Assembly (NCBI GenBank): GCA_037128595.1 | Contig: JBAXWB010000007.1 | Coordinates: forward strand, 96,588-160,587 | DNA: 64,000 nt | Direction of reading: 5' to 3' | From: a bacterium | Lineage (GTDB): Bacteria; Verrucomicrobiota; Kiritimatiellia; CAIKKV01; CAITUY01 | Shown here: positions 36,944 to 60,795 of the stretch, piece after piece | How positions within the stretch are numbered: position 1 is the first letter of the stretch | Layout of the letters: each line of letters opens with the position of its first letter | Position numbers and translations under genes: made by a program | Notes under the pieces: model-generated | Databases searched by the model: none | What the model saw: only the letters and a program-made list of their open reading frames with translations | What the model was told of the DNA's origin: nothing

Positions 36944-37741
36944 ATGATCGTGTGTGCCGATGATTTCGGGTTGTCCAGTGACATTGATCGCGCCATTCTC
37001 CAACTTTCGGAAAGCGGCAGGATTTCAGCAGTGTCATGCATGGTGGGCCTCAGCCACTTCGACCGGGTGGCGTTTTCAAAACTGCTCCGTTTGGGAGGCC
37101 GGGTGGATATCGGTCTTCATCTGACACTTACGGATATTCCGCCCCTCCATGCCGTATCCGGTGTGGTTTCGCTGCTCCAGTCAAGGGGTGTTTTTCATCC
37201 CATGGATGTCTTACTGAGGCGGGGAGTGCTGGGGCGGATCAAACCGGATGATGTGACTCGCGAGACTCAAAGTCAGTATGATCGCTTCATTCAGTTTGCA
37301 GGACGTCCTCCGGACTATCTGGATAGTCATCTCCACATTCATCAGTTCCCGGGTGTCCGGGAAGGTATTCTGAAGTTTCTGGACGGGATGGGACCTGAAG
37401 CCGCGCCCTATGTCCGGAATTCCGCCATGACCCTCCGTAAAATCATCCGGCAGGGAGTCTCTCCCTTGAAATGTATGGCCATCGGTTTTTTGGGAAATCA
37501 TTTCCGCAAGGCCCTTCAATTACGGGGGTTGAAAACCAATGACGGGTTTGCCGGTATTTATGCTTATGACGGGCATCGTGCCTACCCAGAGTACCTCAGG
37601 CGCTTTGTGGATTGCATGGAAAGCCGGAATGGAATTCTAATGACCCATCCCGGTGAGAGCGAGGCCTGGCGGAAATGCGAATACAAAACGTTGCTTGAGT
37701 CTGACAATCTTCCGGGCCTGCTCAACCGGTTTGGCGGATAA
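36944..37741 (+). CDS. ChbG/HpnK (YdjC) family carbohydrate deacetylase
   Basis: MIVCADDFGLSSDIDRAILQL plus a DSHLHIH metal-site block. Confidence 0.75.
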   Translation: MIVCADDFGLSSDIDRAILQLSESGRISAVSCMVGLSHFDRVAFSKLLRLGGRVDIGLHLTLTDIPPLHAVSGVVSLLQSRGVFHPMDVLLRRGVLGRIKPDDVTRETQSQYDRFIQFAGRPPDYLDSHLHIHQFPGVREGILKFLDGMGPEAAPYVRNSAMTLRKIIRQGVSPLKCMAIGFLGNHFRKALQLRGLKTNDGFAGIYAYDGHRAYPEYLRRFVDCMESRNGILMTHPGESEAWRKCEYKTLLESDNLPGLLNRFGG

Positions 37742-46022: not shown

Positions 46023-46080
46023 GGAGAGAGGTCGAAGTCGTGAGTTGCGAGTCCAAAGCCGAACGTGGGCACTCGTGACT

Positions 46081-47181
46081 TTATTCGCTTAGGCGATAGC
46101 TTGTGCTCCGCCCGCGACTCGGATTCAGCATCAGGGTGCCACGCTCGAGAAGTTCCCTTATATCACGCAAGGCAGTGTCGGCGGAACAGTGCGCCAGCTT
46201 GGCATATTTGGATGAGGTCAGGTTCCCCTCAAACCCATCCAAAAGCCGGTTGACCACCAGGCGCTGACGGTCATTGATGGCTGACATGTTGATTTTCTCC
46301 CAGATCCGGGCTTTTCGCAAGACACCGGCCAGCGTCGTGTGCGCAAGCTCCAAGGCACGACCCAGACATTCAAGAAACCATTTCATCCACAGGGTGATCT
46401 CGATGGTGCCCTTCTGGCTGGACTCCAAAATCTGATAATAGTCTTTTCGTTCCGCTTCAATCTGGGCTGACATGCTGTAAAACCGAGTAGCCGTGCCATC
46501 AGCTCTGGCCAGGGCCATGTCCGCGATGGCACGGGCAATACGCCCGTTTCCATCCTCAAACGGATGGATCGTCACAAACCAGAAATGCGCCAAAGCGGCC
46601 TTCAATACCGGATCGACGGCAGGCGGCGCGTTGAACCATTGAAGAAACGCGTTCACCTCGGCATCCAGTCTGAGAGCGGCAGGAGCCTCGAAGTGCACCT
46701 TTTCGCGGCCGATTCCACCGGACACCACTTGCATTGGCCCCGACTCCATCGTACGCCATGCCCCCACGGTGATCTTTCTCATATTGCTATAGCCTGTAGG
46801 AAACAGCGCAGCGTGCCAGGAGAAAAGTCGTTCCTGAGTCAGGGGTTCGGCATACTTTTGCGTGGCATCAAGCATCATCTCCACCACGCCCTCAATGTGC
46901 CGGGACGACAGAGGTGTCCCGCCAGTCTCCATCCCCAGTTTACGAGCCAGGGAGGAGCGAACTTCGCCCGCATCCAGTGACTCGCCCTCTATAGCAGCAG
47001 ACTTCACAATATCAACGGTCAAGGTGGCAAGGTGCGCTTCATCACGCAAATGGAACCCCAACGCTTCCATTCGCCCCAGAAGCCGGCCTTGCCGATGCCG
47101 AATTTCCACCAGCGCAGGAGCCAATAGCGCATCATCCCACTTGAAATTCGGCCAATCTCGATCTTCGTATATGTACGGCAT
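46081..47181 (-). CDS. Fic family protein (AMPylase/adenylyltransferase fold) with C-terminal wHTH
   Basis: HPFEDGNGRIARAIADMALAR is the canonical HPFx(D/E)GNGRxxR Fic motif; start moved to MPYIYEDRDWPNFKWDD, the typical Fic N-terminus. Confidence 0.85.
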   Translation of the reverse strand: MPYIYEDRDWPNFKWDDALLAPALVEIRHRQGRLLGRMEALGFHLRDEAHLATLTVDIVKSAAIEGESLDAGEVRSSLARKLGMETGGTPLSSRHIEGVVEMMLDATQKYAEPLTQERLFSWHAALFPTGYSNMRKITVGAWRTMESGPMQVVSGGIGREKVHFEAPAALRLDAEVNAFLQWFNAPPAVDPVLKAALAHFWFVTIHPFEDGNGRIARAIADMALARADGTATRFYSMSAQIEAERKDYYQILESSQKGTIEITLWMKWFLECLGRALELAHTTLAGVLRKARIWEKINMSAINDRQRLVVNRLLDGFEGNLTSSKYAKLAHCSADTALRDIRELLERGTLMLNPSRGRSTSYRLSE

Positions 47182-47347
47182 AAACACCTCACCTGATCGA
47201 GATACTGAACTTTTAACGCGAATAGCGCAAGTATTTACCGCATATCCTGCGGTGATTAAGACGCTTATTCGCCGCAAATACCATCATCTCTCCTTCTGTT
47301 CTGGCTCCTGGATACGGTCATTTTTCGCCTCTTGATTTTATCAATAG

Positions 47348-47380
47348 CCAATGCTAAACAGCTTGAGCATGAGCAAGACC
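47348..47380. repeat. copy 1 of a ~33-bp direct repeat (CCAATGCTAAACAGCTTGAGCATGAGCAAGACC) spanning the start codon of the LacI-HTH gene
   Basis: Second copy at 48947-48979 (about 27/33 identical), immediately after the same gene's stop. Confidence 0.7.
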
Positions 47381-48943
47381 GCTACGTTAAAAGATGTGGC
47401 CATAGCCGCCGAAGTGGATCCTTCGACAGCCTCTTTTGTCATCAACGGCAAAGGAGATAAGCTCCGGATCAGTCCCTCCACCCAGGCTCGGATTATGGCT
47501 GCAGCCCGCCAGTTGGGATACCGCCCGAACGCCATTGCCAGGGATGTCGCTCTGGGGCGCGGTGTCGAGCCGATTATCACAAGTGACGCCTCGTCCACGT
47601 CGGCAATACCGAGAGAGCGGCAAATCGGCCTTGTGCTCTCGGCCACCAGTCCGGGCGAAACCCTGGCCTTGATCCCCAGGCTGGAGCCGCCACTCTCCGC
47701 CGCAGGCTACCAGTTGGTCGTGATCACCCTTCCTGTTGATGAGAGTGCAGTCCGGGAACGAGTGTTGAAACTTGGGTTTGCCGGACTCATCTGCTGTCCC
47801 ACCGTCTACGCCACCGTGTCCACGCTGGTCGCCGGGGTATGTCCCACCATCGTTTTATGGGAAGGCGCAGGGAAGGCGATCTTGATTGCGGTGAGCCCGC
47901 CACGAGCGGATGCAACCGTGGAGGGCAGTAGGCAGTCGGCAGTGAGCAATCCACAGCCTCCGGTACAACCCGCACCACCCATCCTTCAACCCAAACCGAT
48001 AGCCGTTGCGCCAGTTGCAACACCGAAGCCGGTCATCGTGGCTCCAACGCCGAGACCCGTTCCCGCGCCGACACCGGAGCCAATACCTGTGCCTGACACG
48101 GTCCCAGCGCCGGTCTTTACGCCCGAACCCGAGCTGGCTCCGGTGTCGGAGCCGAGTCCGGCCTTGGCCGATCCTGAACCGGTGTTATCGCCTTTGTCGC
48201 CGGAAGCCAGCATGTCAACACCGGCAACACCGGAATTGGATTCCAACCCGGTGCCGGAGACCGCAACACCGGAGCCCATTCCGGTGTCAGAGCCGAGTCC
48301 GGCCTTGGCCGATCCTGAACCCGTATCGTCGCCTTTGTCGCCGGAAGCCAGCGTGTCAACACCGGCAACACCGAAATTGGATCCCAGCCCGGCGACGGAG
48401 GCCGCAACACCGGTGCCGGTCATTGAGCCCAGTGAACTCACGCCGGTCACGGTGGCAGACCCTGCCGCTGACAACCCTTCGACAAGCTCAGGGCAGGCGG
48501 CGGCTACTACAGAAGAAAATTCAATTCCGGTTGTGACCGACGAGGTGCACGCTGCACCTGTAGTAACCGGTGTATCGCCGGTAGAAGCCAATCCAGAGCC
48601 ACAACCGGAACCTGCCCCGGAACCCGTGCCGACATTTACGCCAATCGTTACTTCAGCTCCGGCTCCCGAACCAGTAGCCCCACCCCCTGAACCCATCGCA
48701 GATCCACCGCCAGTGGTTTCCCCGCCGCCCGCGCCAGTGATACCTGCTGAGCCGCCACCTATCATTCCGGTCCCGGCTCCGGCAGAAGTTCTACCGCCAA
48801 CTGATTTTCCGATTCCCGAGGCACCTTCAGCCGACCCGCTGTCAGCAGCGAATGAGGCAACCATCGACACCGATTCGCCGATGTCAGAAACTGATTCGCA
48901 AGCTACGATTTCGCCCGATAAGCAGGCACCACCAATTCAATAA
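47351..48943 (+). CDS. LacI-type HTH protein with degenerate periplasmic-binding-like domain and long Pro/Ala/Thr/Glu-rich low-complexity tail
   Basis: N-terminal ATLKDVAIAAEVDPSTASFVINGKG...ISPSTQARIMAAARQLGYRPNAIARDV is the LacI/GalR HTH. The tail has PEPxP / PAP repeats including a 47-aa tandem duplication. Possible start at the second ATG (MSKTATLKDVA). Confidence 0.6.
   Translation: MLNSLSMSKTATLKDVAIAAEVDPSTASFVINGKGDKLRISPSTQARIMAAARQLGYRPNAIARDVALGRGVEPIITSDASSTSAIPRERQIGLVLSATSPGETLALIPRLEPPLSAAGYQLVVITLPVDESAVRERVLKLGFAGLICCPTVYATVSTLVAGVCPTIVLWEGAGKAILIAVSPPRADATVEGSRQSAVSNPQPPVQPAPPILQPKPIAVAPVATPKPVIVAPTPRPVPAPTPEPIPVPDTVPAPVFTPEPELAPVSEPSPALADPEPVLSPLSPEASMSTPATPELDSNPVPETATPEPIPVSEPSPALADPEPVSSPLSPEASVSTPATPKLDPSPATEAATPVPVIEPSELTPVTVADPAADNPSTSSGQAAATTEENSIPVVTDEVHAAPVVTGVSPVEANPEPQPEPAPEPVPTFTPIVTSAPAPEPVAPPPEPIADPPPVVSPPPAPVIPAEPPPIIPVPAPAEVLPPTDFPIPEAPSADPLSAANEATIDTDSPMSETDSQATISPDKQAPPIQ
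48120..48405 (+). repeat. 141-bp tandem duplication (x2) inside the Pro-rich coding region
   Basis: GAGCCGAGTCCGGCCTTGGCCGATCCTGAACC recurs at 48149 and 48290; encodes TPEP...SEPSPALADPEPV(L/S)SPLSPEAS(M/V)STPATP(E/K)LD twice. Confidence 0.75.
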
Positions 48944-48946
48944 TAA

Positions 48947-48979
48947 CTAATGCTCAACAGCTTGAGCACAAGCAAATAG
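48947..48979. repeat. copy 2 of the 33-bp repeat; contains the perfect palindrome TGCTCAA-CAGC-TTGAGCA (48951-48968) and would encode MLNSLSTSK*
   Basis: Read directly; it recapitulates the first 9 codons of the LacI-HTH gene, then hits TAG. Confidence 0.7.
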
Positions 48980-48986
48980 CGAGGTA

Positions 48987-49616
48987 TCAAATCTTCGTGG
49001 ACACAGTGGACTTTGCTGACGGGGTTGACCAAGGACGTGGCGAACGTTTCTCGGAGCGGATCCGGTAGAGGCGTTCAGTGAAACCGCCTTCGGCCTCAAA
49101 AGCAGAGGCTTGAGATGCAATTTGGCGATCAAGCAAACTGCAGGCAACCGCCAGCAAAACCAGCGCCGCATTGGCCGCAAGTTCAGGATATGGGTTTTGT
49201 CCACTTGGTCCACCCAGTCCACTCCCCCGATTATCCCGCACCCAGACAGCCACATCATCCGCGGTCACGCAACGGCGATCAATCAGGTTTTGTCGGCGAG
49301 GATCCTCGCGCTTCCAGATCGGCATGCTTCTCTGGCGAAGGAAATCTTCGTAATCGAGGCGGAGTTCTTCCAAACTGGCACGGGCCACATTCGTAAGTTT
49401 CAGTTCGGTCTTTTTGGAAGTTCCCGAAGCCTGGCTCCCTTCGGCAATATTCTGGACCCCGGACCGCGCCGCCTGGACCATCTGGTCATGGGTACGACTT
49501 CGCCGGTCAATGAATCGGTCGCAAAAACGCACGGTGATATCGAAAGCCAATTGAGCGACCTGAAAGCTTTTGAGCTTCCGGTAGCCTCCATGCACAGGTA
49601 TGAGCGGCTCGGCCAT
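48987..49616 (-). CDS. four-helix-bundle protein (TIGR02436-like, 23S rRNA IVS protein family) with C-terminal extension
   Basis: GYRKLKSFQVAQLAFDITVRFCDRF ... AARSGVQNIAEG ... NVARASLEELRLDYEDFLRQ matches the family pattern (YRxL, NIAEG, SLxEL). Confidence 0.6.
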   Translation of the reverse strand: MAEPLIPVHGGYRKLKSFQVAQLAFDITVRFCDRFIDRRSRTHDQMVQAARSGVQNIAEGSQASGTSKKTELKLTNVARASLEELRLDYEDFLRQRSMPIWKREDPRRQNLIDRRCVTADDVAVWVRDNRGSGLGGPSGQNPYPELAANAALVLLAVACSLLDRQIASQASAFEAEGGFTERLYRIRSEKRSPRPWSTPSAKSTVSTKI

Positions 49617-49798
49617 TATTCATCAACTCCTGCTTATTAAGCAGGTAATATGACAGCACCAGCCGAGTTTCGTCTATCTGCGCCAGTAACGATTTTTCTA
49701 TCAGCGAATGTTGGAGCAGAGCGGTGTTGTTGCGGTATTGCAACTTACTCAGCTTCGTACTATTGTTTCAGAACATTACAGGGAGACAAACCTTCAGC

Positions 49799-50500
49799 AT
49801 GCCAGACAAACACACAGATATTCGCTACACGCCCCTTTACCGACTGCCCGAAGTAGCAATGTACACGCATGGCAACTTGAGCACGCTTCGCACATGGGTT
49901 ATGGGGCGTTCACACGCCACCAAAGATGGCCAAAAATACCAGCCAGTAATCAAGGTCGAACAACCTAACCGCGCGGATGCCTTAAGTTTTATCAACTTGA
50001 TCGAAAGTCACGTTCTGGTGGCATTGAGGAGGACTCATCAAGTTCCCCTGCCTAAAATCAGGGATGCCGTCCTTTGGCTCCAGCAGGAAACGGGTTCAGA
50101 ACATCCTCTGGCAGAACTCCAGATCGAGACAGACGGACTTAATGTTTTCTTTCGCCATTTAAATCAAATCATTAGTGCTTCCGAGAAAGGCCAAGTGGTA
50201 ATTCGGGATGTCATGGAGCGCTACCTGCGCCGGATCGAACGTGACGCCAAAGGCATTCCTATCAGTTTTTGCCCCTTCACCCTTTCGGATCCTTTGCGTG
50301 ATTCTCAAACCGATATCATCATGGATCCTGCCGTTGCATTCGGACGCCCAGTGATCCGGGGAACACGCATTGCAACCGCCACAATTTTGGAGCGCTATAA
50401 AGCGGGGGAAGGCCTGACTGACCTCTCAAAAGACTATGACTTGGAGATGAGACTCATTGAAGAAGCACTCCGCTGCGCAATCGACCAGCAAGCCGCCTGA
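49799..50500 (+). CDS. DUF433-domain (antitoxin-like) protein with long N-terminal extension
   Basis: C-terminal IIMDPAVAFGRPVIRGTRIATATILERYKAGEGLTDLSKDYDLEMRLIEEALR is the DUF433 fold. ATG 49799 with GGGAGA RBS preferred over GTG 49724. Confidence 0.6.
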   Translation: MPDKHTDIRYTPLYRLPEVAMYTHGNLSTLRTWVMGRSHATKDGQKYQPVIKVEQPNRADALSFINLIESHVLVALRRTHQVPLPKIRDAVLWLQQETGSEHPLAELQIETDGLNVFFRHLNQIISASEKGQVVIRDVMERYLRRIERDAKGIPISFCPFTLSDPLRDSQTDIIMDPAVAFGRPVIRGTRIATATILERYKAGEGLTDLSKDYDLEMRLIEEALRCAIDQQAA

Positions 50501-50888
50501 CGCTTTCCGACTGGTTCTTGACGAAACCTTGGCCGGAAAATCCATTCTGGAAGGACTGCAGCAACAAGGTATTCCTGCAATCCCCTTAACTGAATTCGTT
50601 CCCAGGGGAGCGACAGATGAAGCGGTGCTGGAAGCATTGGCGCAAAAGGGAGACCTGTACTTTATCACCCGCGACCATCATTTCCGGTATCATCCAGGGG
50701 TCAAAGAAAGACTTCTTGCAGGTGGAGTGGGTGCATTTGTCATCACATCAGCAGGGAATAAGACGGCCGCGCAAATAGTTGAGCTTTTGTTAGCAGCCTG
50801 GCCCCACATTAATAAATTTGTGAGTACCCACCAACGGCCCTTTGCAGCCAAGGTAGCCGCATCCGGGAAAATCGAGTTACACTCGTAA
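50457..50888 (+). CDS. DUF5615-family (Mut7-C / PIN-like) putative toxin; start uncertain (TTG)
   Basis: FRLVLDETLAGKS ... GDLYFITRDHHFRY resembles the DUF5615 N-terminal LxDENL and D-rich core; partners with the DUF433 protein. Confidence 0.5.
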   Translation: MKKHSAAQSTSKPPDAFRLVLDETLAGKSILEGLQQQGIPAIPLTEFVPRGATDEAVLEALAQKGDLYFITRDHHFRYHPGVKERLLAGGVGAFVITSAGNKTAAQIVELLLAAWPHINKFVSTHQRPFAAKVAASGKIELHS

Positions 50889-50945
50889 CAGTCCCGTTAC
50901 GCATTGCAGAATGTCGCTTCCACCAGGTTGAGATAATCTAGTCCG

Positions 50946-52058
50946 CTAAATTCCGCGTTTGTCTTCAATTAACTTGAAGTAATTCATCAGCGCCTTCGGC
51001 CGGTATTTCGGATCGCCATCCCACCGCGACAAGACACTGGCATGCAAAGACTGGGTTGGATCAATTGAGGGGGCCGTTTTACGCGATTCGGCAGGGCCTG
51101 AAGGCTGGCCGATGGCACGATCTATACCGAAGGTGGGCCAATAGACGCCGGTTTTGGAGTTATGCAGTTTGGCGAGAGGATCAGGATGGATCAAATGGGT
51201 TTGAATTACACCTTCATCAAAGACCAATCCGGCTCCGCGTGCCTTCTCAATCATCCATCCCAGGGCAATATCCGAATGTCCACATTCCGAGGCCGGATAC
51301 CCGCCGCCGATATCACTATGCGCACCACAAAACCAGACTTGTTCAACTGTCTGCCCCGGTTTCGGCACATAGTCCCATATTGACGGGGCGAATGGGGCGC
51401 GATGCTCATCAATGGCTAGGGCGTGGTAAGCAGATTCAACCGTCTTACTTAATTCCGTGTCGTGGAACTGAAAATCATGCCGGGTAAGATACCGCAATCC
51501 CCGTAACGGTATACCAAGCGCACCCACCGTATCCCAAACCCCAATAAACTTAATGGGAATATTTTCGGCACCACAAATGGAAAAGTCCGTCCTGAATTTA
51601 AGCGGCTGCTCATCGTCGGGATGGACGTCCATCTTCCTGTACAAATCAATTGCGTCCCGGTAATGCTGAACAAATTCACGCTTGAGAATGCCACATTTGC
51701 GAATCATCCCGGCAATACTGCGAGCGGTAAAGGCCCCGCGACTAAACCCAAACAGAAAAATCTCATCCCCAGGCTCATAATTGGCCACCAGAAACCGATA
51801 GGCATCATGAATATTGGCCTCCAACCCTTCGCCAAAAGCCCCACCTGTCGCCCTATCGACCGAATTCCCCGTCCCAACCCCCTGATCGTAATAGATGATC
51901 TGAGGAATATCGCCATCCCGCTTGGCCACTCGATAGGCAATTTTTACGACATTAGAGGGGCAAGGAACGCCATTATCATCTTCCTGGTCGGGCTTATTCC
52001 AGGTGCCGTCACAACAAAGAATGAGTCTTTTCACTTTTACCCCATAATTCTGATTCAC
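50946..52058 (-). CDS. DUF2235 alpha/beta-hydrolase (T6SS Tle1-type phospholipase fold), last gene of the four-gene system
   Basis: LILCCDGTWN N-terminal block and GFSRGA nucleophile elbow (GxSxG) are hallmarks of DUF2235/Tle1; GTG start, 22 nt after the ATPase gene. Confidence 0.7.
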   Translation of the reverse strand: MNQNYGVKVKRLILCCDGTWNKPDQEDDNGVPCPSNVVKIAYRVAKRDGDIPQIIYYDQGVGTGNSVDRATGGAFGEGLEANIHDAYRFLVANYEPGDEIFLFGFSRGAFTARSIAGMIRKCGILKREFVQHYRDAIDLYRKMDVHPDDEQPLKFRTDFSICGAENIPIKFIGVWDTVGALGIPLRGLRYLTRHDFQFHDTELSKTVESAYHALAIDEHRAPFAPSIWDYVPKPGQTVEQVWFCGAHSDIGGGYPASECGHSDIALGWMIEKARGAGLVFDEGVIQTHLIHPDPLAKLHNSKTGVYWPTFGIDRAIGQPSGPAESRKTAPSIDPTQSLHASVLSRWDGDPKYRPKALMNYFKLIEDKRGI

Positions 52059-52080
52059 TGCCTACATGCCCTTGCACCCC

Positions 52081-53802
52081 CTAGAAACGACGGCCGAATA
52101 GTCCGCCATCTTCCTTTGCATCGGTCAGGACGACAGGTAAAACATGTTCTCGTAGGTCAAACCCATCCGTCTTCTCTTTGTAAGCATCATCTTCGTTCAT
52201 TGTGACAATATATTGGAATCTAAGCTCCCGAGCAGTTTCCGCCCCCACCTTCAACGCACTGACAACTTGTCGTCCATCCACCCCATCAAAAAGGTGGCTG
52301 TCATGCACCAAAAAACCGGGGCCAATCCCACGCTTCGCACAAAGGCGCATAAGCATCATATCAAAACAGAATATCTGCATGTTCTTTATACCCCTACTAC
52401 GCGCGCCCTGCATGGGAAATTGAAAAACGGGCCCGTTGGAGGTTTCCTCGATAGTCATACTGCCGGCTGACTCATAAAGGCGTTTTGACGTCTCTTCGAA
52501 AGCGAGAATTGCCTCTGCCAAACGACCCTTTTGTTCTGAAAAATCCCGACGCAGGCGTATTGCTAGGTGATTTCGTTCAATTTCAAGCTCGTTTTTGGTG
52601 CCTTCCAACTGCTCGGCAGACTCAAAGCGTTGGCGTAACGATGCCACCTCCGATTCAAGACGGCCTGCTTCACCTTGCAGTTTTGCAAACTGCTCCAAAG
52701 CCCCGTGACTATCCAACACGCTCATAACTTCGGCTCGACGCTGATCGAGGCGTCGCTTCTCCACGCCTCGGGAGGCCATTCGCTCTTTGGCTGCGCCTAA
52801 TTCCCCTGATAGGTAATCGCGTCGGTTACGGATTATCGACTCATGGAAACATCGTACTTCCTCGTAGCGTTTGACAGTTAGTCCCGGCAAGGCGACCCCC
52901 GCTTCAGCATAAATACTTTCAATCTCGATCTGTGATGGCGGCGCCTCTCCTTTCATAGCACTCTCAAGGTCATGGATTGCCGCAGTGTCTATGATGTTGA
53001 CGTTGGATATGGTCTTAATTTGTTTCGTAATCTGATCCGCTTCTGCTTCAAGTAGTTCATATTGTGGCAACACGCGAAAGGCAGTAATTTGAGACTGCAA
53101 ATCGATCAGTCGAGATTCAGCAACTGTCAGTTGCGTTCGAAGGTCGGCAGCCTTGCCAATGATGCTCCCGAAGGCGCCAGCTCCGGCGGCCTTCTTAAGT
53201 GCGGCAAGCGTTTTTTCTCGGTCGCGCACTTTCTGCCAGTCGCTCGCGATTTTCCAATCTAGACCAAGCAAAAACAACAGAGCCACCTGATAGTCTCCGG
53301 CCTGTTGCATGGCAGCCTGCTTCTCAGGTGTCATGAATGCCCCGCTATGTTGACGCCGGACGAAGTATGCAAAAAGTGATCTAAAGGTTGGGACGCGTCC
53401 CTCCATTTCGGATATAGCCTTCAATCCGAACATCTTTTCCCCAAGCGCCTGAACCCACTCAGAATTGGACAGGCTTGTTTTCCCATTTAGAAAAGCACCG
53501 CCCTCAACAAAAATTTTTGATTTCTCCTTTCCACAGCGCTTCACCGCTGCTCGATCTACACCAAGATCGAGATCAATGCCGAACATTTCACCGGCAACCG
53601 CTTCCCCTCGGAAAAGTGAATCTTTCCCAGCCTCAGAACCCGTGAGAAAATGAATAATCTCAATCAAGCTTGTTTTACCTGCCCGGTTCCGGGTTTGCTT
53701 TTCGGTTGCACCCGACTCCTTCTGAGCAATCAAGACATTTAGTCCATGGGTGAATTCAAGATTCTTAAAAGTTGTGAGGCTGCTAGAAATGCTATGAATC
53801 AT
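52081..53802 (-). CDS. ABC/SMC-like ATPase with central coiled-coil insertion (ABC-three-component-type ATPase candidate)
   Basis: Walker A NRAGKTSLIEIIHFLTG near the N-terminus; about 250 aa of heptad-rich coiled coil (LEAEADQITKQIK...LESEVASLRQRFESAEQLEGTKNELEIERNHL); C-terminal Walker-B/D-loop-like GFLVHDSHLFDGVD. ATGA overlap with the upstream 81-aa gene. Confidence 0.6.
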   Translation of the reverse strand: MIHSISSSLTTFKNLEFTHGLNVLIAQKESGATEKQTRNRAGKTSLIEIIHFLTGSEAGKDSLFRGEAVAGEMFGIDLDLGVDRAAVKRCGKEKSKIFVEGGAFLNGKTSLSNSEWVQALGEKMFGLKAISEMEGRVPTFRSLFAYFVRRQHSGAFMTPEKQAAMQQAGDYQVALLFLLGLDWKIASDWQKVRDREKTLAALKKAAGAGAFGSIIGKAADLRTQLTVAESRLIDLQSQITAFRVLPQYELLEAEADQITKQIKTISNVNIIDTAAIHDLESAMKGEAPPSQIEIESIYAEAGVALPGLTVKRYEEVRCFHESIIRNRRDYLSGELGAAKERMASRGVEKRRLDQRRAEVMSVLDSHGALEQFAKLQGEAGRLESEVASLRQRFESAEQLEGTKNELEIERNHLAIRLRRDFSEQKGRLAEAILAFEETSKRLYESAGSMTIEETSNGPVFQFPMQGARSRGIKNMQIFCFDMMLMRLCAKRGIGPGFLVHDSHLFDGVDGRQVVSALKVGAETARELRFQYIVTMNEDDAYKEKTDGFDLREHVLPVVLTDAKEDGGLFGRRF

Positions 53803-54044
53803 GGTGTTCTCCGGGATAAAAGCCCATTTTGAAGGTCAATTGCACCAATGAGAAAAAGAAGGTCAAGAGCAAGAACAAAGCTGTCATAGCGCAAGGGTGG
53901 CACAATATTCCGCCCGATGTCCCTTCGCGGCAATTCTTCCCATAATGCGGACATCGTTTTCGGCTGTGGCAAGTGATGCAAGATCCGAGCCCCTATCGAG
54001 AGAAGCGCGCGGTCTTGAGAAAGATGTTTCGATGGCAGGATCAT
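53799..54044 (-). CDS. small alpha-helical protein (81 aa); candidate middle component
   Basis: ATGA overlaps on both sides (coupled to the 301-aa gene and to the ATPase). No motif recognised; size, position and predicted helicity fit ABC-3C middle components. Confidence 0.45.
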   Translation of the reverse strand: MILPSKHLSQDRALLSIGARILHHLPQPKTMSALWEELPRRDIGRNIVPPLRYDSFVLALDLLFLIGAIDLQNGLLSRRTP

Positions 54045-54946
54045 AACTCAAGAGTTTTAGGTTCTTCAAAAATATCACACCTCTCAAAATAATAAGCAAT
54101 CACCGTCAAGACTGCCAGTTCATGCTCTGGCGTGCCGCGGTGGCCACCTCCAGCCCATGATTGTAGCTCAAAAAAAACCTCATTTGGGCTAAATTTAGTC
54201 CGGAGTTCTTGATATTTGGCCTTGAATGATTCAGCGATGCGCTCCCCTAACGTTTCGTCATGCCACTTGCTGAAGAAAGTTTCGACTAACAATGCCTTGG
54301 TGATACCAACCTTCAATAAATCGGTGACGCTTATAGACAATGCATTAGCTTCGATCTTCCCCATGGGCACTTCCCTCACCGCAAGTGCTGTCAGCACTGG
54401 TCGTTTTGCGATGGTTTCTAACACAACTTGTAAATCTTTAAAACCCAAATGAGTCTTGGTCTCTTCTGAAGGAACAGGTCCAAACCAAGACTGGAGGTCG
54501 TCGTGTGACAATCTACGAAATACGAGGCGAAATTCCTCTAAACCCCATGTTTCCAGCGTAATACCTGAATTGGCTACTTCAAAGTCGAGCACAAACTTTT
54601 GAACATGCGGAGGAATTCCCCCAGTTGCGTTGTGCGCGAAAACCCATTTATCAAAATGTTTACCCCAGTAGGCTTTGGCCCCCTCAAAATCCTCGGTAAT
54701 TTTCGAAATTGCCTTGGATGCCTCCATCTCGTTTGGCGCATATACTTGAAATAATCTTCTTTCTGATTTCAGAAAACCATCGTTCTTACGGTCTCCCTGA
54801 TTCCCCCATGGCCGACAAGCCATAAAATCAGCCTTGTAAGCCAAGCCCATCAATCTTTCGAAAAGTGACTGAAATTCGTTACCCTTCGCCCGGAGAAAGG
54901 CAATCTCGAAACCTTGCTCATAAAATGCTTTTTGTAGGCGGTCCAT
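54041..54946 (-). CDS. hypothetical 301-aa protein; candidate effector/C-terminal-domain component (possible degenerate Mrr-like nuclease N-domain)
   Basis: Starts 3 nt after the hsdMS stop. N-terminal FMACRPWGNQGDRKNDGFLKSERRLFQVYAP loosely resembles Mrr-cat (GDxGxDG...QxK); the C-terminal half is helical. Confidence 0.45.
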   Translation of the reverse strand: MDRLQKAFYEQGFEIAFLRAKGNEFQSLFERLMGLAYKADFMACRPWGNQGDRKNDGFLKSERRLFQVYAPNEMEASKAISKITEDFEGAKAYWGKHFDKWVFAHNATGGIPPHVQKFVLDFEVANSGITLETWGLEEFRLVFRRLSHDDLQSWFGPVPSEETKTHLGFKDLQVVLETIAKRPVLTALAVREVPMGKIEANALSISVTDLLKVGITKALLVETFFSKWHDETLGERIAESFKAKYQELRTKFSPNEVFFELQSWAGGGHRGTPEHELAVLTVIAYYFERCDIFEEPKTLEL

Positions 54947-54949
54947 GTT

Positions 54950-57481
54950 TTAACCCTCCGTGTTTGCTATTTCTTCTCCCCACACCCGCCCCAACGTCGT
55001 CTGGATCTTCTTCTCAAATCGGACGATCAGTTCGCGGTTCGCCGCTACCAGCGCTTGCTCGGCTTCGATCTCCGCAATGATCGCTTTCTGCGTGGCGAGG
55101 GGCGGGAGGGGAATTTGAACGGAAGACAGAATGCCTTGGTTTAAGTTCTTCATTGTGACGCCAATGGCTTGTTCTTCGAGATATGCCCTAACCTTTTGAG
55201 ATGCAATTTGGAAGAAAGCGAATCGAGGGAGGCACTTGCTTTTTAAACGAATGACAAAACTCCCAGTACCGCAAAGCCAGCCAGCCATGTCCGCAGAGAC
55301 CACTGCACACCTTCCCATTTCACCTCGCCTACCGATAACAATGTCATTCCCCTGGACAGTGAATTCTTTTAGGCGGTCTCTGGTGGCAGCGGACACCATC
55401 TTTACACCATCAGTGCTTATAGCTCCATCGACTATGTTTTGCGGATTGATGACAGGTATTCCATCCGCGACGTAATCACTTTGGTGTAGAGCAGTTCCGA
55501 ATGGACCGGTCATTATGGCCTCACACACCTCCCCCAACTCCACCATCGGCCACCCGGGGTCAATAGTGATGTGGGGGCAGTAGTTATCGAGGACGGCGCG
55601 GGCACCATCGATGACTTTCTGGTAACCCTCGATCTCTGTCACGATCTCCTTCTGTATCTCTAATGGCGGAAGGGGGATTTGAATCGACCTCAAGATCGGC
55701 ATATTTAAACCGCTTCGTTCATTGTCTCCCGTTAATGCCCGAATTTCTGCATACATCGAGCGAAGCACCCAAAAGACAAACTCTACGACTGCTCGGGGTG
55801 GTTGCGCCGGGGTAATAGCAACGAGAGATTGGTTACAAGTAGCACCTTCCATACGCAGCAATGCAACTGTCCCGCGCGTTTTCCCCTGCCCATTAAGCGC
55901 GATTAAAACACTGTCCTTTGGTAAGATTCGGGCATTCGAGTTCTCCACTGCCTTCCGGGTAATGCGCTTCTCGCAATCCCAAATCTCAAACCCATGAATA
56001 TCACCCGATACCAACCATGGAACGGACCCATTCTCGTAATATTCCGCGAGGGTTGAGGTTGGTGTTCCCCCAGTCATAAAAGTGCATATTTCTCCAAGTG
56101 AAACGGTTGGCCATTTTCCCTGAAGCATCCGTGTTTGCTCGCTATACCGCTCTCCACTGAGGTTGTAGTCGCCATTGGCGCCTATCTTTTCTTTTGGAAC
56201 GATGAGTCCCGTGGTGATGGCTATGCTCTCGACTCGCTGCTTGGCTCGGATTGCTTGAAGGTAGGACTCCAATTCACCCTGCACTTGCGGAAGGTCATTT
56301 TTATTGAAGGCGCGGCGCTGAGCCCCGAGGCCGAAACCGTCGTTTTCAACTTTGAAAAAGGCGATGGTCTGGCATTGCCGGGCCAGGGATTTGTCGAGAA
56401 TGAGAATACTGGTCTTCACTCCTGAGTAGGGATTGAAACAGCCCGCTGGCAGGGAGATGACGGCGACCAGGCTGGTATCCACCAGCATCTTGCGTAGTTC
56501 TTTGTAGGCGGTCTGGCTCTGGAAGATGATTCCCTCTGGCACAATGATGGCGGCGCGGCCGGTAGGCGTAAGATGCTCGGCCATGTAATCCACAAACAGG
56601 ACTTCACTGCGCTTGGCCTGGATGGAGAAGCGCTTATGGGGCTTGATCCCGCCTTTGGGTGACATGAAGGGCGGGTTGGCCAGAATGACATCGGAAAAAT
56701 CGTTCCAGCGCTCTTCGGAGGTAAGGGTGTCGTATTCGTAAATGTGGGGATCGGTAAAGCCATGAAGATAAAGGTTCACCAGGGAGAGGCGTACCATGTC
56801 GGGCGAGATGTCATAGCCCTTGAAATTCTTGGCGAGGCGCCCTTTGTCGTCAGGCGTCAATTTGCTGTGGCCCTTGGCGTCGGTGTTGTTGCGAAGAATA
56901 TGCTTATAGGCAGAGATGAGGAAACCGGCGGTACCGCAGGCGGGATCAAGGATGCTCTCGCTTTTCTTCGGCGCGAGCACCTCTACCATGAAGTCGATGA
57001 TATGGCGTGGAGTCCGGAACTGCCCAGCATCGCCCTGACTGCCCAACACGGAAAGCAGATACTCAAAGGCGTCGCCCAGCTTTTCGCTATGGTCATAGCT
57101 GAACTCGTTAACGATCTTGAGGAAAGACTTGAGCGTCTCGGGGTCACGGTACGGGAGATAGGCGTTTTTGAAGATATCGCGAAAGAGCGGCGGGATGCCG
57201 GGATTCTCCGGCATCCTGGAAATGCCTTCACCGTAGAGGCCAAGCATCTCGTGCCCACCAAGTGAGGGCGCCATGAGTTTGGCCCAGCCGTAGCGGGCGA
57301 ACTCCTTGGTGAAAAACTTGCGCTTTCCCCCAAGCTCCTCGGATTCGGCATCCATGTCATCCATGAATTTATAGATCAGCGCAATGGTGATCTGCTCAAC
57401 CTGGGATTTGGGATCAGGCACTTTGCCAACAAGAATGTCACGAGCGGAGTCGATGCGGCGTTTGGTGTCAGTATCTAGCAT
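54950..57481 (-). CDS. hsdM: type I restriction-modification methyltransferase and specificity subunits fused in one ORF (HsdM-HsdS)
   Basis: N-terminal HsdM N-domain; QFRTPRHIIDFMVEVL; DPACGTAGFLISAY (motif I); ILANPPF (motif IV); IVPKEKIGANGDYNLSGERY HsdM C-terminus. This continues without a stop into two TRDs (KWPTVSLGEICTFMTGGTPTST and GWPMVELGEVCEAIMTGPFGT) with the conserved LPPLEIQKEIV and LPPLATQKAIIAEIE HsdS coiled-coil repeats. Start at ATG 57481 (MLDTDTKRRID). Confidence 0.8.
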   Translation of the reverse strand: MLDTDTKRRIDSARDILVGKVPDPKSQVEQITIALIYKFMDDMDAESEELGGKRKFFTKEFARYGWAKLMAPSLGGHEMLGLYGEGISRMPENPGIPPLFRDIFKNAYLPYRDPETLKSFLKIVNEFSYDHSEKLGDAFEYLLSVLGSQGDAGQFRTPRHIIDFMVEVLAPKKSESILDPACGTAGFLISAYKHILRNNTDAKGHSKLTPDDKGRLAKNFKGYDISPDMVRLSLVNLYLHGFTDPHIYEYDTLTSEERWNDFSDVILANPPFMSPKGGIKPHKRFSIQAKRSEVLFVDYMAEHLTPTGRAAIIVPEGIIFQSQTAYKELRKMLVDTSLVAVISLPAGCFNPYSGVKTSILILDKSLARQCQTIAFFKVENDGFGLGAQRRAFNKNDLPQVQGELESYLQAIRAKQRVESIAITTGLIVPKEKIGANGDYNLSGERYSEQTRMLQGKWPTVSLGEICTFMTGGTPTSTLAEYYENGSVPWLVSGDIHGFEIWDCEKRITRKAVENSNARILPKDSVLIALNGQGKTRGTVALLRMEGATCNQSLVAITPAQPPRAVVEFVFWVLRSMYAEIRALTGDNERSGLNMPILRSIQIPLPPLEIQKEIVTEIEGYQKVIDGARAVLDNYCPHITIDPGWPMVELGEVCEAIMTGPFGTALHQSDYVADGIPVINPQNIVDGAISTDGVKMVSAATRDRLKEFTVQGNDIVIGRRGEMGRCAVVSADMAGWLCGTGSFVIRLKSKCLPRFAFFQIASQKVRAYLEEQAIGVTMKNLNQGILSSVQIPLPPLATQKAIIAEIEAEQALVAANRELIVRFEKKIQTTLGRVWGEEIANTEG

Positions 57482-57484
57482 TTT

Positions 57485-57511
57485 GGATTTCTGATTGAGG
57501 ATTTCTGATTG
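57485..57511. repeat. tandem GGATTTCTGATTG x2 between the four-helix-bundle gene and hsdM
   Basis: Inverted relative to 57902-57928 ((T/C)AATCAGAAATCC, CATTCAGAAATCA); together they bracket the four-helix-bundle gene. Confidence 0.7.
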
Positions 57512-57531
57512 TATGGCACGTATTGTGAAAA

Positions 57532-57894
57532 TTATTGATTGTTTTGTTTGGCGGTACGGCCAGATGCGACAAATATAGCGGTGAGTTCCCCGGCTTCTTG
57601 ATGTAGTTGCGCAACCTTCCCTGCGGGAAGAAGCCCACCTTCCATAATTAATTCCATCCAAAGGGAACTTTCATCGGCTTCCTCGGCAACGACGCCAATC
57701 TTGGCGACAAACTCTGCTTTAGAACGGCTTCGGCATGAGGCACGATAATTGGCACCTACAGAGGTACCACTGCGCACAAGTTGATTTCCGATGGCTCGAC
57801 CTGCAGTGGTTTTCGGCAACGCATCGACGAGTTTCAGCACTCTCAATGCAAAAACCTTCGTCCGTTGCTTCAGTTCTGCCTCGTTCATGAGCAT
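57532..57894 (-). CDS. four-helix-bundle protein (TIGR02436, 23S rRNA intervening-sequence protein family)
   Basis: 120 aa; LKQRTKVFALRVLKLVDALPKTTAGRAIGNQLVRSGTSVGANYRASCRSRSKAEFVAKIGVVAEEADESSLWMELI is the textbook family pattern. Inserted between hsdR and hsdM. Confidence 0.8.
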   Translation of the reverse strand: MLMNEAELKQRTKVFALRVLKLVDALPKTTAGRAIGNQLVRSGTSVGANYRASCRSRSKAEFVAKIGVVAEEADESSLWMELIMEGGLLPAGKVAQLHQEAGELTAIFVASGRTAKQNNQ

Positions 57895-57901
57895 TTTCTC
57901 C

Positions 57902-57928
57902 TAATCAGAAATCCGCATTCAGAAATCA
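57902..57928. repeat. TAATCAGAAATCC / CATTCAGAAATCA, inverted partner of 57485-57511
   Basis: Lies between the hsdR stop and the four-helix-bundle start. Confidence 0.7.
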
Positions 57929-57937
57929 AAAATCACT

Positions 57938-60472: not shown

Positions 60473-60704
60473 TCGTTTCCCTATTCCACAGATATGTTTT
60501 CGAGAGTGTCAAAAGGCCACCGGGAAGGCAAGAGCGATGACTTCACCGGTCCGGTTATTTCTTTTCGAGCACCGCCAGGACCCGGTCCAGTTTCGCATTC
60601 AACTGCTTCACCTCGACACTGTTCTTATAGGCCATGGCCACCACTTTAACGGATATCAGAAAGACACCCGCCTCCAGGAACAGGTCGTGAGTCATTCCTT
60701 TGAC

Positions 60705-60795
60705 AAAAAAAAAGGATTCAGAACCCAGAATCCAGGAAGTGATCTCACTCCCCATTCTGACTCCTGAATCCTGACTTCTGGATTCTGTCTTTTTT
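60705..60795. terminator. bidirectional Rho-independent terminator (A9 - nested GGATTCAG / CTGAATCC and CAGAATCCAG / CTGGATTCTG hairpins - T6) downstream of the cyclophilin gene
   Basis: Read directly; the minus-strand transcript of the PPIase gene meets a hairpin followed by a U9 run. Confidence 0.55.

What the first reader, a model, noticed from the sequence alone, without database searches (positions are those of the whole stretch)
47348..48979. LacI-HTH / proline-rich gene exactly delimited by a 33-bp direct repeat that duplicates its own first 9 codons
The segment from 47348 is repeated at 48947, immediately after the stop codon. The second copy reads ATG CTC AAC AGC TTG AGC ACA AGC AAA TAG (MLNSLSTSK*), a stub of the gene start. 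Copy 2 contains a perfect 7-4-7 palindrome, TGCTCAAcagcTTGAGCA, which is plausibly a LacI-type operator or a recombination core. The encoded protein is unusual: a LacI HTH, a short degenerate sugar-binding-like domain, then about 350 aa of PEPxP low complexity including a 141-bp tandem duplication. The pattern suggests cassette duplication or insertion, or an autoregulatory operator at both ends.
Basis: seen in the sequence. Interest (0 to 1): 0.55.

Follow-up and report, generated by a model that had tools for sequence, protein, structure and literature searches.

The report
Repressor gene bracketed by its operators
The 33-bp repeat is real and is most likely the binding site of the LacI/Cra-type DNA-binding protein encoded between the two copies, placed once on the gene's start codon and once just behind its stop codon, a layout that recurs with lineage-specific site sequences across an undescribed protein family in freshwater Kiritimatiellia-like bacteria.

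Summary
Window 47343-47376 and 48942-48975 match at 29 of 34 bases, and nothing else in the window resembles them. Each copy holds a 20-bp palindrome, ATGCTMAACAGCTTGAGCAY.

The gene between them has a Cra/FruR-type LacI helix-turn-helix, only the first ~90 residues of the LacI core, and a ~330-residue proline-rich tail. Homologues put the true start at ATG 47369, giving 524 aa.

The repeat is not a private accident of this window. Six lineages of the same protein family carry one copy on the start codon and one 2-117 nt after the stop. They use four different element sequences, and the two copies change together. The 16-bp cores match the published Cra box GCTGAAnC/GnTTCAGC at 11-12 of 14 positions.

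The best reading is a promoter-overlapping autoregulatory operator plus a 3' auxiliary operator. Binding has not been shown.

A ~90%-identical relative (L043) has lost the gene exactly between the repeats. So the repeats also act as recombination substrates, although no recombinase was found. The "stub ORF" in copy 2 has no meaning.

This is a new variant of a known kind, of moderate interest.

The parts
47343..47376 (+). Repeat copy 1: the promoter/operator module on the gene start. It holds the 20-bp palindrome ATGCTAAACAGCTTGAGCAT (47351-47370) and the 16-bp Cra-like box GCTAAACAGCTTGAGC (47353-47368). It ends in the probable start codon, ATG 47369.
   Evidence: The same element lies on the start codon of homologues in L001, L002, L003, L018, L084 and L090. 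It matches the Cra box at 11 of 14 positions (consensus from PMC7897506).
47352..47360 (+). TGCTAAACA, an extended -10-like motif (TGn + TAAACA) ending 8 nt before ATG 47369. A TTGATT lies 17 nt upstream (47333-47338), and there is no Shine-Dalgarno sequence. This is a candidate promoter for a leaderless mRNA. It is inferred only.
   Evidence: Read directly from the sequence. All gene-start copies keep TGCTAAA, and six of seven have TTG at the -35-like position. Non-start copies lack the TTG and are often TGCTCAA. The generic sigma-70 scan did not call this site.
47369..48943 (+). Gene for a 524-aa protein (530 aa if started at 47351). It has a Cra/FruR-type LacI HTH (nt ~47384-47530), a disordered linker, a truncated LacI-core N-subdomain (nt ~47618-47893) and a proline-rich tail (nt ~47936-48940).
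   Evidence: The family has about 99 clusters at 50% identity.
48127..48408 (+). In-frame 141-bp (47-aa) tandem duplication within the proline-rich tail.
48942..48975 (+). Repeat copy 2, overlapping the stop codon. Its palindrome is ATGCTCAACAGCTTGAGCAC (48950-48969), with a perfect 7-4-7 at 48951-48968 and the Cra-like box GCTCAACAGCTTGAGC at 48952-48967. It is the proposed auxiliary operator.
   Evidence: An equivalent copy lies 15, 24, 2, 40 and 117 nt after the stop in L084, L018, L110, L113 and L111. Read on the minus strand it also fits a weak terminator pattern for the convergent gene.
46031..47298 (-). Flank, not part of the system: an inserted SoFic-type Fic/DUF4172 gene (ORF 46081-47277). 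It is absent from L043 and L084, where the SDR gene abuts the element.
48976..60750 (.). Flank, not part of the system: a variable defence island directly after copy 2. It holds a four-helix-bundle gene, DUF433/PIN, a Tle1-like gene, PDC-M68 (DUF2326 + CTD10) and a type I R-M system. It is absent in L084, where the cyclophilin gene (window 60794-61372) follows copy 2.

Best explanation
The two repeat copies are binding sites (operators) for the protein encoded between them. That protein is a dimeric LacI/Cra-type helix-turn-helix protein that has lost the effector-binding half of the LacI core and gained a long proline-rich tail.

Copy 1 overlaps an extended -10-like promoter element and the start codon. 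A bound protein there would shut off its own, probably leaderless, transcription. In this reading copy 1 stays an imperfect palindrome (TGCTAAA) because it must also serve as the promoter.

Copy 2 is a promoter-dead but perfect palindrome (TGCTCAA) immediately behind the stop codon. It would act as a high-affinity auxiliary site. It could cooperate with copy 1 by looping out the gene, or act as a protein roadblock at the 3' end of a gene that has no intrinsic terminator.

What is shown: the repeat, the domain architecture, the family-wide start plus after-stop layout, the co-variation of the copies, and the similarity to the Cra box.

What is inferred: binding itself, the promoter and leaderless start, and looping or roadblock.

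As a side effect the direct repeats are substrates for recombination. One relative has deleted the gene precisely between them.
For: 1. The element is conserved on the start codon of homologues that share only 51-68% protein identity, where neutral DNA would be unalignable.

2. A second copy lies 2-117 nt after the stop in six lineages, with gene lengths from 259 to 524 aa. Four different element sequences are used, and the two copies match each other within each lineage:
- Window, L084 and L018: GCTMAACAGCTTGAGC.
- L110: GCTAAACAGGTTGCRC.
- L113: a perfect 23-nt repeat holding ATGCTAAAGCGCTTTAGCAT.
- L111: TTGCGCAAC..GTTGCGCA.

3. Both the window and L084 keep copy 1 as A-type and copy 2 as C-type. 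The copies have therefore evolved separately, and both were preserved.

4. The best solved-structure match of the HTH is the E. coli FruR/Cra DNA-binding domain. The alignment is ungapped through the GKxxxxRxS loop (three residues longer than in the other LacI-family proteins aligned), and the recognition helix is TASFVING against Cra's TASYVING.

5. The published FruR/Cra operator is the 16-bp GCTGAAnC/GnTTCAGC (PMC7897506; PMC5888115). The window cores match 11 of 14 specified positions with the same length and centre, and L113 matches 12 of 14.

6. L001 has a symmetric half-site change (GCTAAC..GTGAGC) together with a changed recognition helix (TTASAVLNG). Other element types go with other helices.

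7. There is no Rfam match, and the sense-strand RNA hairpins are weak.
Against: - No binding data exist.
- The truncated core may or may not dimerise, and there is no obvious tetramerisation module for looping.
- The LacI hinge helix (YRPNAIARDV) is present in the window and L018 proteins but absent in L084, L090, P0001 and P0002.
- 11 of 14 matches to the Cra box is only about p = 0.01 once palindromy is allowed for. Two unrelated sites in the window reach the same score.
- L008 carries a perfect window-type element, inverted, after a related gene whose recognition helix is different.
- L090 has no downstream copy. Its second copy lies upstream instead.
- Element copies often lie exactly at borders of variable DNA. 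A pure operator model explains this only indirectly.
Confidence: 0.7

Rival explanations
1. The repeats are att-like core sites of a site-specific or Campbell-type recombination system. The gene, and the neighbouring defence islands, would be cassettes that insert and excise at the element, leaving a copy on each side.
For: - L043, about 90% identical in the flanks, has one hybrid copy and no gene. The junction lies inside the repeat.
- In L086 copy A keeps the upstream flank and copy B keeps the first ~14 codons of the gene, with 3.8 kb between them.
- In L091 a 9-kb type I R-M + RadC island lies between an orphan copy and the gene-start copy. In L112 a RhuM gene lies between two copies.
- Islands abut the copies in the window, L099, L094 and L095.
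Against: - No integrase or recombinase gene is visible in the parts annotated: the window from 43.6 to 64 kb, and the genes listed for the related contigs. Window 1-43 kb and many related-locus ORFs were never run against a domain library.
- Each genome has only 1-2 copies and no arrays.
- Four different element sequences would each need a matching target site.
- The window's 11.8-kb island and the SoFic insertion are not flanked by two copies.
- L002 lost the R-M island by deletions that do not use the element.
- The deletion and the L086 structure are equally explained by ordinary unequal or short-homology recombination between two operators.
Confidence: 0.1
2. The palindromes act as RNA stem-loops at the 5' and 3' ends of the mRNA, affecting translation start, stability or termination. 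They would not be protein-binding DNA sites.
For: - Every element type is an inverted repeat, and symmetric changes keep the pairing (L001, L108, L111, L113).
- Copy 2 read on the minus strand folds at -12.6 kcal/mol (z = -2.5) and is followed by a T-rich stretch. It is called terminator-like for the convergent four-helix-bundle gene.
- In L008 the element is oriented as hairpin plus U-run after the gene.
Against: - On the sense strand the copy 1 hairpin is not even the minimum-energy fold (z = -0.96), and copy 2 is weak (-8.3 kcal/mol, z = -1.9) with no U-tract.
- The gene-start copies consistently keep the A/G mismatch.
- If the mRNA is leaderless, most of copy 1 is not transcribed.
- In L099 the downstream gene is co-oriented, and in L084 the convergent gene has its own terminator. 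A terminator role for the antisense strand is therefore not general.
- There is no Rfam match.
Confidence: 0.1
3. Copy 2 is a functionless relic of an old duplication of the gene's 5' end, for example a lost tandem paralogue. Its only significance is as a deletion-prone direct repeat.
For: - The repeat includes the first three codons (ATGAGCAA versus ACAAGCAA).
- Orphan copies in L091 and L086 carry decayed gene starts.
- In four lineages copy 2's ATG is in frame with the ORF.
Against: - The 20-nt core of copy 2 is 19-20 of 20 conserved between the window, L084 and L018 while all surrounding DNA has diverged.
- The arrangement recurs with three other element sequences.
- A neutral relic would not survive or co-vary in this way.
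Confidence: 0.05

Closest known systems
Cra/FruR (catabolite repressor/activator) of Enterobacteria, Vibrio and Pseudomonas, and its 16-bp operator GCTGAAnC/GnTTCAGC
   Same: It is the best sequence match for the HTH, with an ungapped alignment that includes the GKxxxxRxS insertion and a near-identical recognition helix. The candidate operators have the same 16-bp length, the same centre and the GCTnAA....TTnAGC frame, at 11-12 of 14 positions. FruR also uses several operators around one promoter (PMC7897506).
   Different: The family here has no fructose-1-phosphate-binding core, only the first ~90 residues of the N-subdomain. It has a ~300-residue proline-rich tail. Positions 4 and 13 of the box, and the centre, differ. 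No sugar genes are nearby, and the second site lies behind the stop codon.
LacI, GalR, PurR and DeoR systems with auxiliary operators and DNA looping (lac O1/O2/O3, gal OE/OI, the two purR autoregulatory operators). This comparison rests on general knowledge.
   Same: There is a primary operator over the promoter or transcription start, plus a second, distant operator of the same sequence inside or beyond the transcribed region. The imperfect primary site is paired with a more symmetric auxiliary site.
   Different: The auxiliary site is consistently placed just after the regulator's own stop codon, 0.8-1.6 kb away. No tetramerisation domain is recognisable. The only evident target is the regulator gene itself.
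Transcriptional roadblocks by LacI-family proteins (LacI, CcpA). This comparison rests on general knowledge.
   Same: A high-affinity palindrome sits in the path of RNA polymerase at the end of a gene that lacks an intrinsic terminator.
   Different: Known roadblocks lie within the target genes of the regulator. They are not known as a self-made 3' boundary of the regulator's own gene. This was not tested here.
Integron gene cassettes (attC) and genomic islands flanked by att direct repeats
   Same: A single gene is bounded by direct repeats that contain an inverted repeat. There is a presence/absence polymorphism with one hybrid copy left behind (L043). Variable defence and toxin-antitoxin genes lie next to the copies.
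   Different: No integrase was seen. The copies are identical in sequence rather than being cassette-specific attC sites. The inverted repeat is a simple 8-4-8, not the R''-L''/L'-R' structure of 57 bp or more. There are only 1-2 copies per genome.
Regulators at the head of defence islands (BrxR/CapW-type WYL regulators). This comparison rests on general knowledge.
   Same: A small autoregulated DNA-binding protein with inverted-repeat operators is found next to many different defence systems. Nine of about fourteen contexts here have this.
   Different: The fold is unrelated (LacI HTH rather than wHTH-WYL). The orientation relative to the island genes is inconsistent. Some loci (L084, L111, L113) have no defence genes.

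Membership tests
LacI/GalR family transcription factor | N-terminal LacI-type helix-turn-helix domain | tested here: met
   Pfam PF00356, E = 2.6e-12, full-length match 1-46 of 46. NCBIfam and PDB hits are to Cra, CcpA, PurR and LacI.
LacI/GalR family transcription factor | Complete two-lobed periplasmic-binding-protein-type core with an effector pocket | tested here: not met
   There are no Peripla_BP hits. The alignment to full-length members stops after beta4. The AF2 model has four beta-alpha units and then disorder. Foldseek core-only matches cover only 86-89 residues.
LacI/GalR family transcription factor | Hinge helix after the HTH that inserts at the operator centre | tested here: inconclusive
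   YRPNAIARDV aligns to Cra's YHPNAVAAGL in the window protein, and L018 has it too. It is replaced by unrelated sequence in L084, L090, P0001 and P0002. Model confidence there is low.
LacI/GalR family transcription factor | Binds a 14-20-bp palindromic operator at its target promoter | not testable with these tools
   A suitable 16-20-bp palindrome overlaps the start codon and co-varies across the family. Binding itself needs an experiment.
Cra/FruR subfamily | Cra-type HTH: three-residue insertion after the recognition helix, and the TASYVING helix | tested here: met
   The alignment to 1UXC/7DOA is ungapped, with TASFVINGKGDKLRIS against TASYVINGKAKQYRVS. Other LacI members need a 3-residue gap.
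Cra/FruR subfamily | Operator matching GCTGAAnC/GnTTCAGC | tested here: inconclusive
   11 of 14 in the window copies and 12 of 14 in L113, with the same length and centre (consensus). Allowing for palindromy this is about p = 0.01. Two other window sites also reach 11 of 14.
Cra/FruR subfamily | Fructose-1-phosphate-responsive core and linkage to fru or central-carbon genes | tested here: not met
   The core is truncated. NCBIfam scores of ~46 bits fall far below the equivalog cut-offs of 385-390. The neighbours are SDR, Fic, defence genes and a PPIase.
Integron cassette / attC | Integron integrase and attI nearby; arrays of cassettes | tested here: not met
   No integrase domain was found in the ORFs that were scanned: window 43.6-64 kb, and selected ORFs or the called genes of the related loci. 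Window 1-43 kb and many related-locus ORFs (for example most of L091, L086, L087 and L090) were never run against a domain library, so absence is not established for the whole window. Each genome holds 1-2 copies.
Integron cassette / attC | attC structure: two nested imperfect inverted repeats, 57-141 bp, with extrahelical bases | tested here: not met
   The conserved unit is about 34 nt with a single 8-4-8 inverted repeat.
Genomic island with att direct repeats | Direct repeats flank DNA that is absent from a related genome, leaving a single hybrid site | tested here: met
   Window versus L043. L086 copies A and B.
Genomic island with att direct repeats | A cognate recombinase is encoded in or next to the island | tested here: not met
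   None was found in the window or in any related contig examined.
Rho-independent terminator | GC-rich stem-loop directly followed by a U-tract on the transcribed strand | tested here: not met
   Nothing is called on the sense strand after the stop codon. Only the antisense reading of copy 2 fits a relaxed pattern, with an interrupted T-run.
Known structured RNA (Rfam) | Match to a curated covariance model | tested here: not met
   Only two hits were found, at E ~ 1 and far below gathering scores, and both lie elsewhere in the gene.

The most novel reading that the evidence does not exclude
The element is more than an operator. The protein-bound palindromes bracketing this gene would form a fixed boundary and recombination hotspot, and defence and toxin-antitoxin islands would be gained, lost and swapped at this point: SoFic, type I R-M, PDC-M68, HipBA, AbiE, MNT/HEPN, RhuM and Druantia fragments all lie directly against the copies. 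In that case this family of truncated LacI proteins with proline-rich tails would mark and help organise a defence-island insertion site in freshwater Kiritimatiellia. The transcription-factor site would double as the crossover site, and the tail would recruit other factors.
Probability: 0.12. Interest if true: 0.75.

Novelty: new variant of a known kind. Interest (0 to 1): 0.45.

Why it matters
The protein family has about 100 clusters at 50% identity, none carrying a more specific source name than "LacI family" in the few members where names were shown, and no description in the one literature search run. It keeps the DNA-reading head of a sugar repressor, has discarded the sugar-sensing half, and has added a long disordered proline-rich tail.

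If the two sites are operators, the family has a consistent and unusual wiring. The regulator's own gene is bracketed by its binding sites, one fused to a probably leaderless promoter and start codon, and one right after the stop codon. That gives a simple natural system for studying long-range operator cooperation, or protein roadblock termination, outside model organisms.

It also offers co-varying protein and site pairs (at least four site types) for studying the LacI-family recognition code.

The case further shows how a pair of regulatory sites can make a gene deletion-prone, and why it sits at a variable, defence-rich locus.

Tried and rejected
- **Repeated or mobile element in the window:** only two copies exist.
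- **Public scans with the DNA pattern:** the genome scan returned about 70 chance hits alongside the true relatives, as expected from the information content of the pattern. The viral-contig hits all lack the conserved flanks and were taken as chance. The metagenome hits L088, L097, L101 and L093 look coding. L096/L098 lies inside a 651-aa ORF and encodes ..PMLNSLSS..; it was also taken as chance.
- **Known RNA families:** none matched.
- **RNA hairpin as the main function:** the folds are weak.
- **Sigma-70 scan:** no promoter was called at either copy. The extended -10 reading is my own inference.
- **PADLOC:** the protein matches no known or candidate defence protein, although its neighbours do.
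- **Recombinase search:** none was found among the ORFs of the island and related loci that were annotated.
- **Regulon search within 64 kb:** only weak extra sites turned up.
- **Closest full-length LacI relative (P0004, L107):** its upstream region has GCTAAAACG-type half-sites but not the same 16-bp frame, which is only weak support.
- **Profile search of the word-indexed protein database with the mid-domain alignment:** it returned only 3 hits. The exhaustive HMMER scan was needed to see the family.
- **Literature search for a LacI/proline-rich protein in Kiritimatiellia:** nothing relevant was found.
- **My codon-level guess that P0031's MLKRFS encodes the exact Cra consensus:** this was wrong in detail. 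The DNA is ATGCTAAAGCGCTTTAGC, a perfect palindrome matching the Cra box at 12 of 14.
Full report
**1. The observation**

The repeat is real. Window 47343-47376 and 48942-48975 share 29 of 34 bases, with start-to-start spacing of 1599. The local alignment scores 43, against 14.6 +/- 2.3 for shuffled sequence. The 20-mer AATGCTMAACAGCTTGAGCA occurs nowhere else in the 64-kb window even with three mismatches; 0.01 are expected by chance.

Each copy contains an inverted repeat:
- Copy 2 has the perfect 7-4-7 TGCTCAAcagcTTGAGCA (48951-48968).
- Copy 1 has TGCTAAA on the left arm.
- With the outer bases included, the unit is a 20-bp palindrome, ATGCTMAACAGCTTGAGCAY.

Copy 2 overlaps the TAA stop codon (48941-48943). 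The 141-bp in-frame tandem duplication at 48127-48408 is also confirmed.

**2. The gene**

Pfam finds only a LacI-type HTH. The best solved-structure match is the E. coli FruR/Cra DNA-binding domain. The alignment is ungapped and includes the three-residue insertion (GKGDKLRIS against GKAKQYRVS), which the other LacI-family proteins aligned here lack. The recognition helix is nearly identical, TASFVING against TASYVING.

The next ~100 residues align with the first four beta-alpha units of the LacI core and then stop. An AlphaFold model (mean pLDDT 74) shows exactly that, followed by disorder. Foldseek returns LacI, CcpA and PurR, and core-only matches cover just 86-89 residues. There is therefore no effector pocket. 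The remaining ~330 residues are proline-rich.

An exhaustive HMMER scan with the mid-domain alone finds 99 cluster representatives, 77 of them at E <= 1e-10. The 14 representatives whose sequences I read all have the same architecture and are 344-647 aa long. This is a real family. The only source name seen for any member is a generic "LacI family DNA-binding transcriptional regulator". One literature search found nothing on it.

Homologues begin MSSYPTLKDVA or MTSSATLKDVA, and all family members read GC-ATG/GTG-AGC at the start. The start codon is therefore most likely ATG 47369, giving 524 aa. 'MLNSLS' is the element read as codons.

**3. Relatives**

The same element lies on the start codon of homologues that share only 51-68% protein identity: L001, L002, L003/L018, L084 and L090.

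A second copy lies just behind the stop codon in six lineages:

| Locus | Distance of second copy after the stop (nt) |
|---|---|
| window | 6 |
| L084 | 15 |
| L018 | 24 |
| L110 | 2 |
| L113 | 40 |
| L111 | 117 |

The more distant family members have the same layout but different element sequences:
- L110 has AATGCTAAACAGGTTGCAC at its GTG start and AATGCTAAACAGGTTGCGC after the stop.
- L113 has a perfect 23-nt repeat, CAATGCTAAAGCGCTTTAGCATG, at both places. Its core is a perfect 20-bp palindrome with a CG centre.
- L111 has TTGCGCAACTC-N9-GAGTTGCGCA at the start and a 77%-identical copy after the stop.

In total, six lineages with four element types and gene lengths of 259-524 aa all place one copy on the start codon and one just behind the stop.

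Two further points bear on selection. The window and L084 both keep copy 1 as TGCTAAA and copy 2 as TGCTCAA, so the copies have evolved separately and both were preserved. In other lineages the second copy is upstream instead. It lies at -318 bp in L002, and at -9 kb in L091 with a type I R-M + RadC island in between. In L112 it lies at -1148 bp with a RhuM gene in between.

**4. What the element looks like**

The published FruR/Cra operator is the 16-bp GCTGAAnC/GnTTCAGC (PMC7897506) or gcTGAAtCGaTTCAgc (PMC5888115). Matches to the 14 specified positions are:
- GCTAAACAGCTTGAGC and GCTCAACAGCTTGAGC (window): 11 of 14, with the same length and centre.
- GCTAAAGCGCTTTAGC (L113): 12 of 14.

Taken alone this is modest. 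Allowing for palindromy it is about p = 0.01, and two unrelated window sites also reach 11 of 14. It does agree with the Cra-type HTH.

L001 shows a symmetric change of both half-sites (GCTAAC..GTGAGC) together with an altered recognition helix (TTASAVLNG). The other element types also accompany different helices.

At gene starts the left arm is always TGCTAAA. This reads as an extended -10 (TGn TAAACA) ending 8 nt before the ATG. There is a TTG at the -35-like position and no Shine-Dalgarno sequence. That suggests a leaderless mRNA, and it would explain why the start copy stays imperfect. The C of the perfect copy 2 would destroy the -10. This promoter reading is inference; the generic scan did not call it.

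**5. Mechanism**

I conclude that both repeats are most likely operators of the encoded protein. Copy 1 gives autorepression by overlapping the promoter and start. Copy 2 is a higher-symmetry auxiliary site.

The constant feature of copy 2 is its position just after the stop, not its distance from copy 1. The gene also has no intrinsic terminator on its own strand. I therefore consider a self-made roadblock at the 3' boundary, or a loop enclosing the gene, the most plausible roles. Neither is shown.

An RNA-hairpin role is weak on the sense strand: copy 1 has z = -0.96, and copy 2 folds at -8.3 kcal/mol with no U-tract. There is no Rfam match. Read on the minus strand, copy 2 does resemble a weak terminator for the convergent four-helix-bundle gene. 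This cannot be general, because in L099 the next gene is co-oriented and in L084 the convergent gene has its own terminator.

**6. The cassette idea**

L043 is a Kiritimatiellia MAG contig with ~88-92% nucleotide identity in the flanking regions. It runs from the SDR gene straight into one hybrid element and then into the four-helix-bundle gene. It lacks both the LacI-like gene and the upstream Fic gene.

L084 is more distant but keeps SDR, element, gene, element. L043 is therefore a deletion between the repeats rather than an empty ancestral site.

L086 shows the complementary picture. One copy keeps the upstream flank. A second copy, 3.8 kb away, keeps the first ~14 codons. This can be the trace of unequal crossing-over or of a Campbell-type insertion.

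Element copies frequently lie against variable defence or toxin-antitoxin DNA:
- SoFic upstream of copy 1 and an 11.8-kb island after copy 2 in the window.
- A type I R-M system after copy 2 in L099.
- A type I R-M + RadC island between the copies in L091.
- HipBA in L094.
- AbiE in L095.
- MNT/HEPN in L108.
- hsdM fragments, IS66 and DruA in L109.
- RhuM in L112.

Against a dedicated recombination system:
- No recombinase was seen among the ORFs annotated.
- There are only one or two copies per genome.
- The window's own islands are not flanked by two copies.
- L002 lost its island without using the element.

I therefore treat recombination as a consequence of having two operators in direct orientation, not as their purpose. 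A dedicated hotspot function remains open at about 10%.

**7. Comparison and verdict**

The system works like a LacI-family autoregulator with an auxiliary operator. The protein is a member of the LacI family by its HTH only. It fails the family's defining core test, and it fails the functional tests for Cra. It is not an integron cassette.

It is best called a new variant of a known kind. The novel features are the architecture (Cra-type head, half a core, proline-rich tail) and the family-wide bracketing of the gene by its own sites.

Three things remain unexplained:
- The inverted lone element after a divergent homologue in L008.
- The role of the tail.
- A possible regularity in the spacings of the two copies (see the noticed items).

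Noticed in passing
window 46031-47298 (ORF 46081-47277, minus strand): A Fic/DUF4172 gene matching the SoFic defence protein (PADLOC, 2.3e-38) is a clean 1.27-kb insertion between the SDR stop codon and the element's upstream region. It is absent in L043 and L084.
   Followed up: partly
window 48976-60750: An 11.8-kb defence island lies between copy 2 and the cyclophilin gene and is absent in L084. It holds a four-helix-bundle protein with a TIGR04258 suffix domain, DUF433 + PIN_10 (ORFs overlapping by 44 nt), a Tle1-like DUF2235 phospholipase, PDC-M68 (DUF2326 + CTD10, ABC-3C type) and a type I R-M system. The R-M system has a fused HsdM-HsdS (903 aa), with a second 23S-rRNA-IVP four-helix-bundle gene between hsdR and hsdMS.
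   Followed up: partly
window 47351 and 48950; L084, L018, L110, L113, L111: Centre-to-centre spacings of the two copies are 1599, 1578, 1536 and 801 bp (all equal to 3 modulo 21) and 1543 and 1123 bp (both equal to 10 modulo 21). The first four are also multiples of 3, so copy 2's ATG is in frame with the ORF. This was noticed after the fact with few data points. It might reflect helical phasing (21 bp is two turns).
   Followed up: no
L008 (CAZOZF010000256), element 30 nt after the stop of a 292-aa HTH + proline-rich gene: A perfect window-type element, CCAATGCTCAACAGCTTGAGCA, lies inverted after a divergent homologue. That homologue has a different recognition helix and no element at its own start. 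The same MAG also carries a proper family member with a different element type (L110). This is unexplained.
   Followed up: partly
L086 1651 and 5489; L094 621: In one lineage the family gene is reduced to about 14 codons, and element copies lie inside what looks like a FecCD / ABC-ATPase / TonB-receptor transport cluster. A HipBA module replaces part of it in a close relative.
   Followed up: partly
window 37720-37735: GCTCAACCGGTTTGGC shares the C-type half-site and matches the Cra box at 11 of 14. It lies at the 3' end of ORF 36944-37741. It may be chance.
   Followed up: no
L001, L002, L100 and others (contig ends): Several assemblies break inside the proline-rich tail of family genes. The repetitive tail, which includes tandem duplications as in window 48127-48408 and L111 5625-5944, probably hampers short-read assembly and hides the family from annotation.
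   Followed up: no
window 47924-47943: A small 7-nt tandem repeat (GGCAGTA x 2.9) lies at the junction between the globular domain and the proline-rich tail.
   Followed up: no
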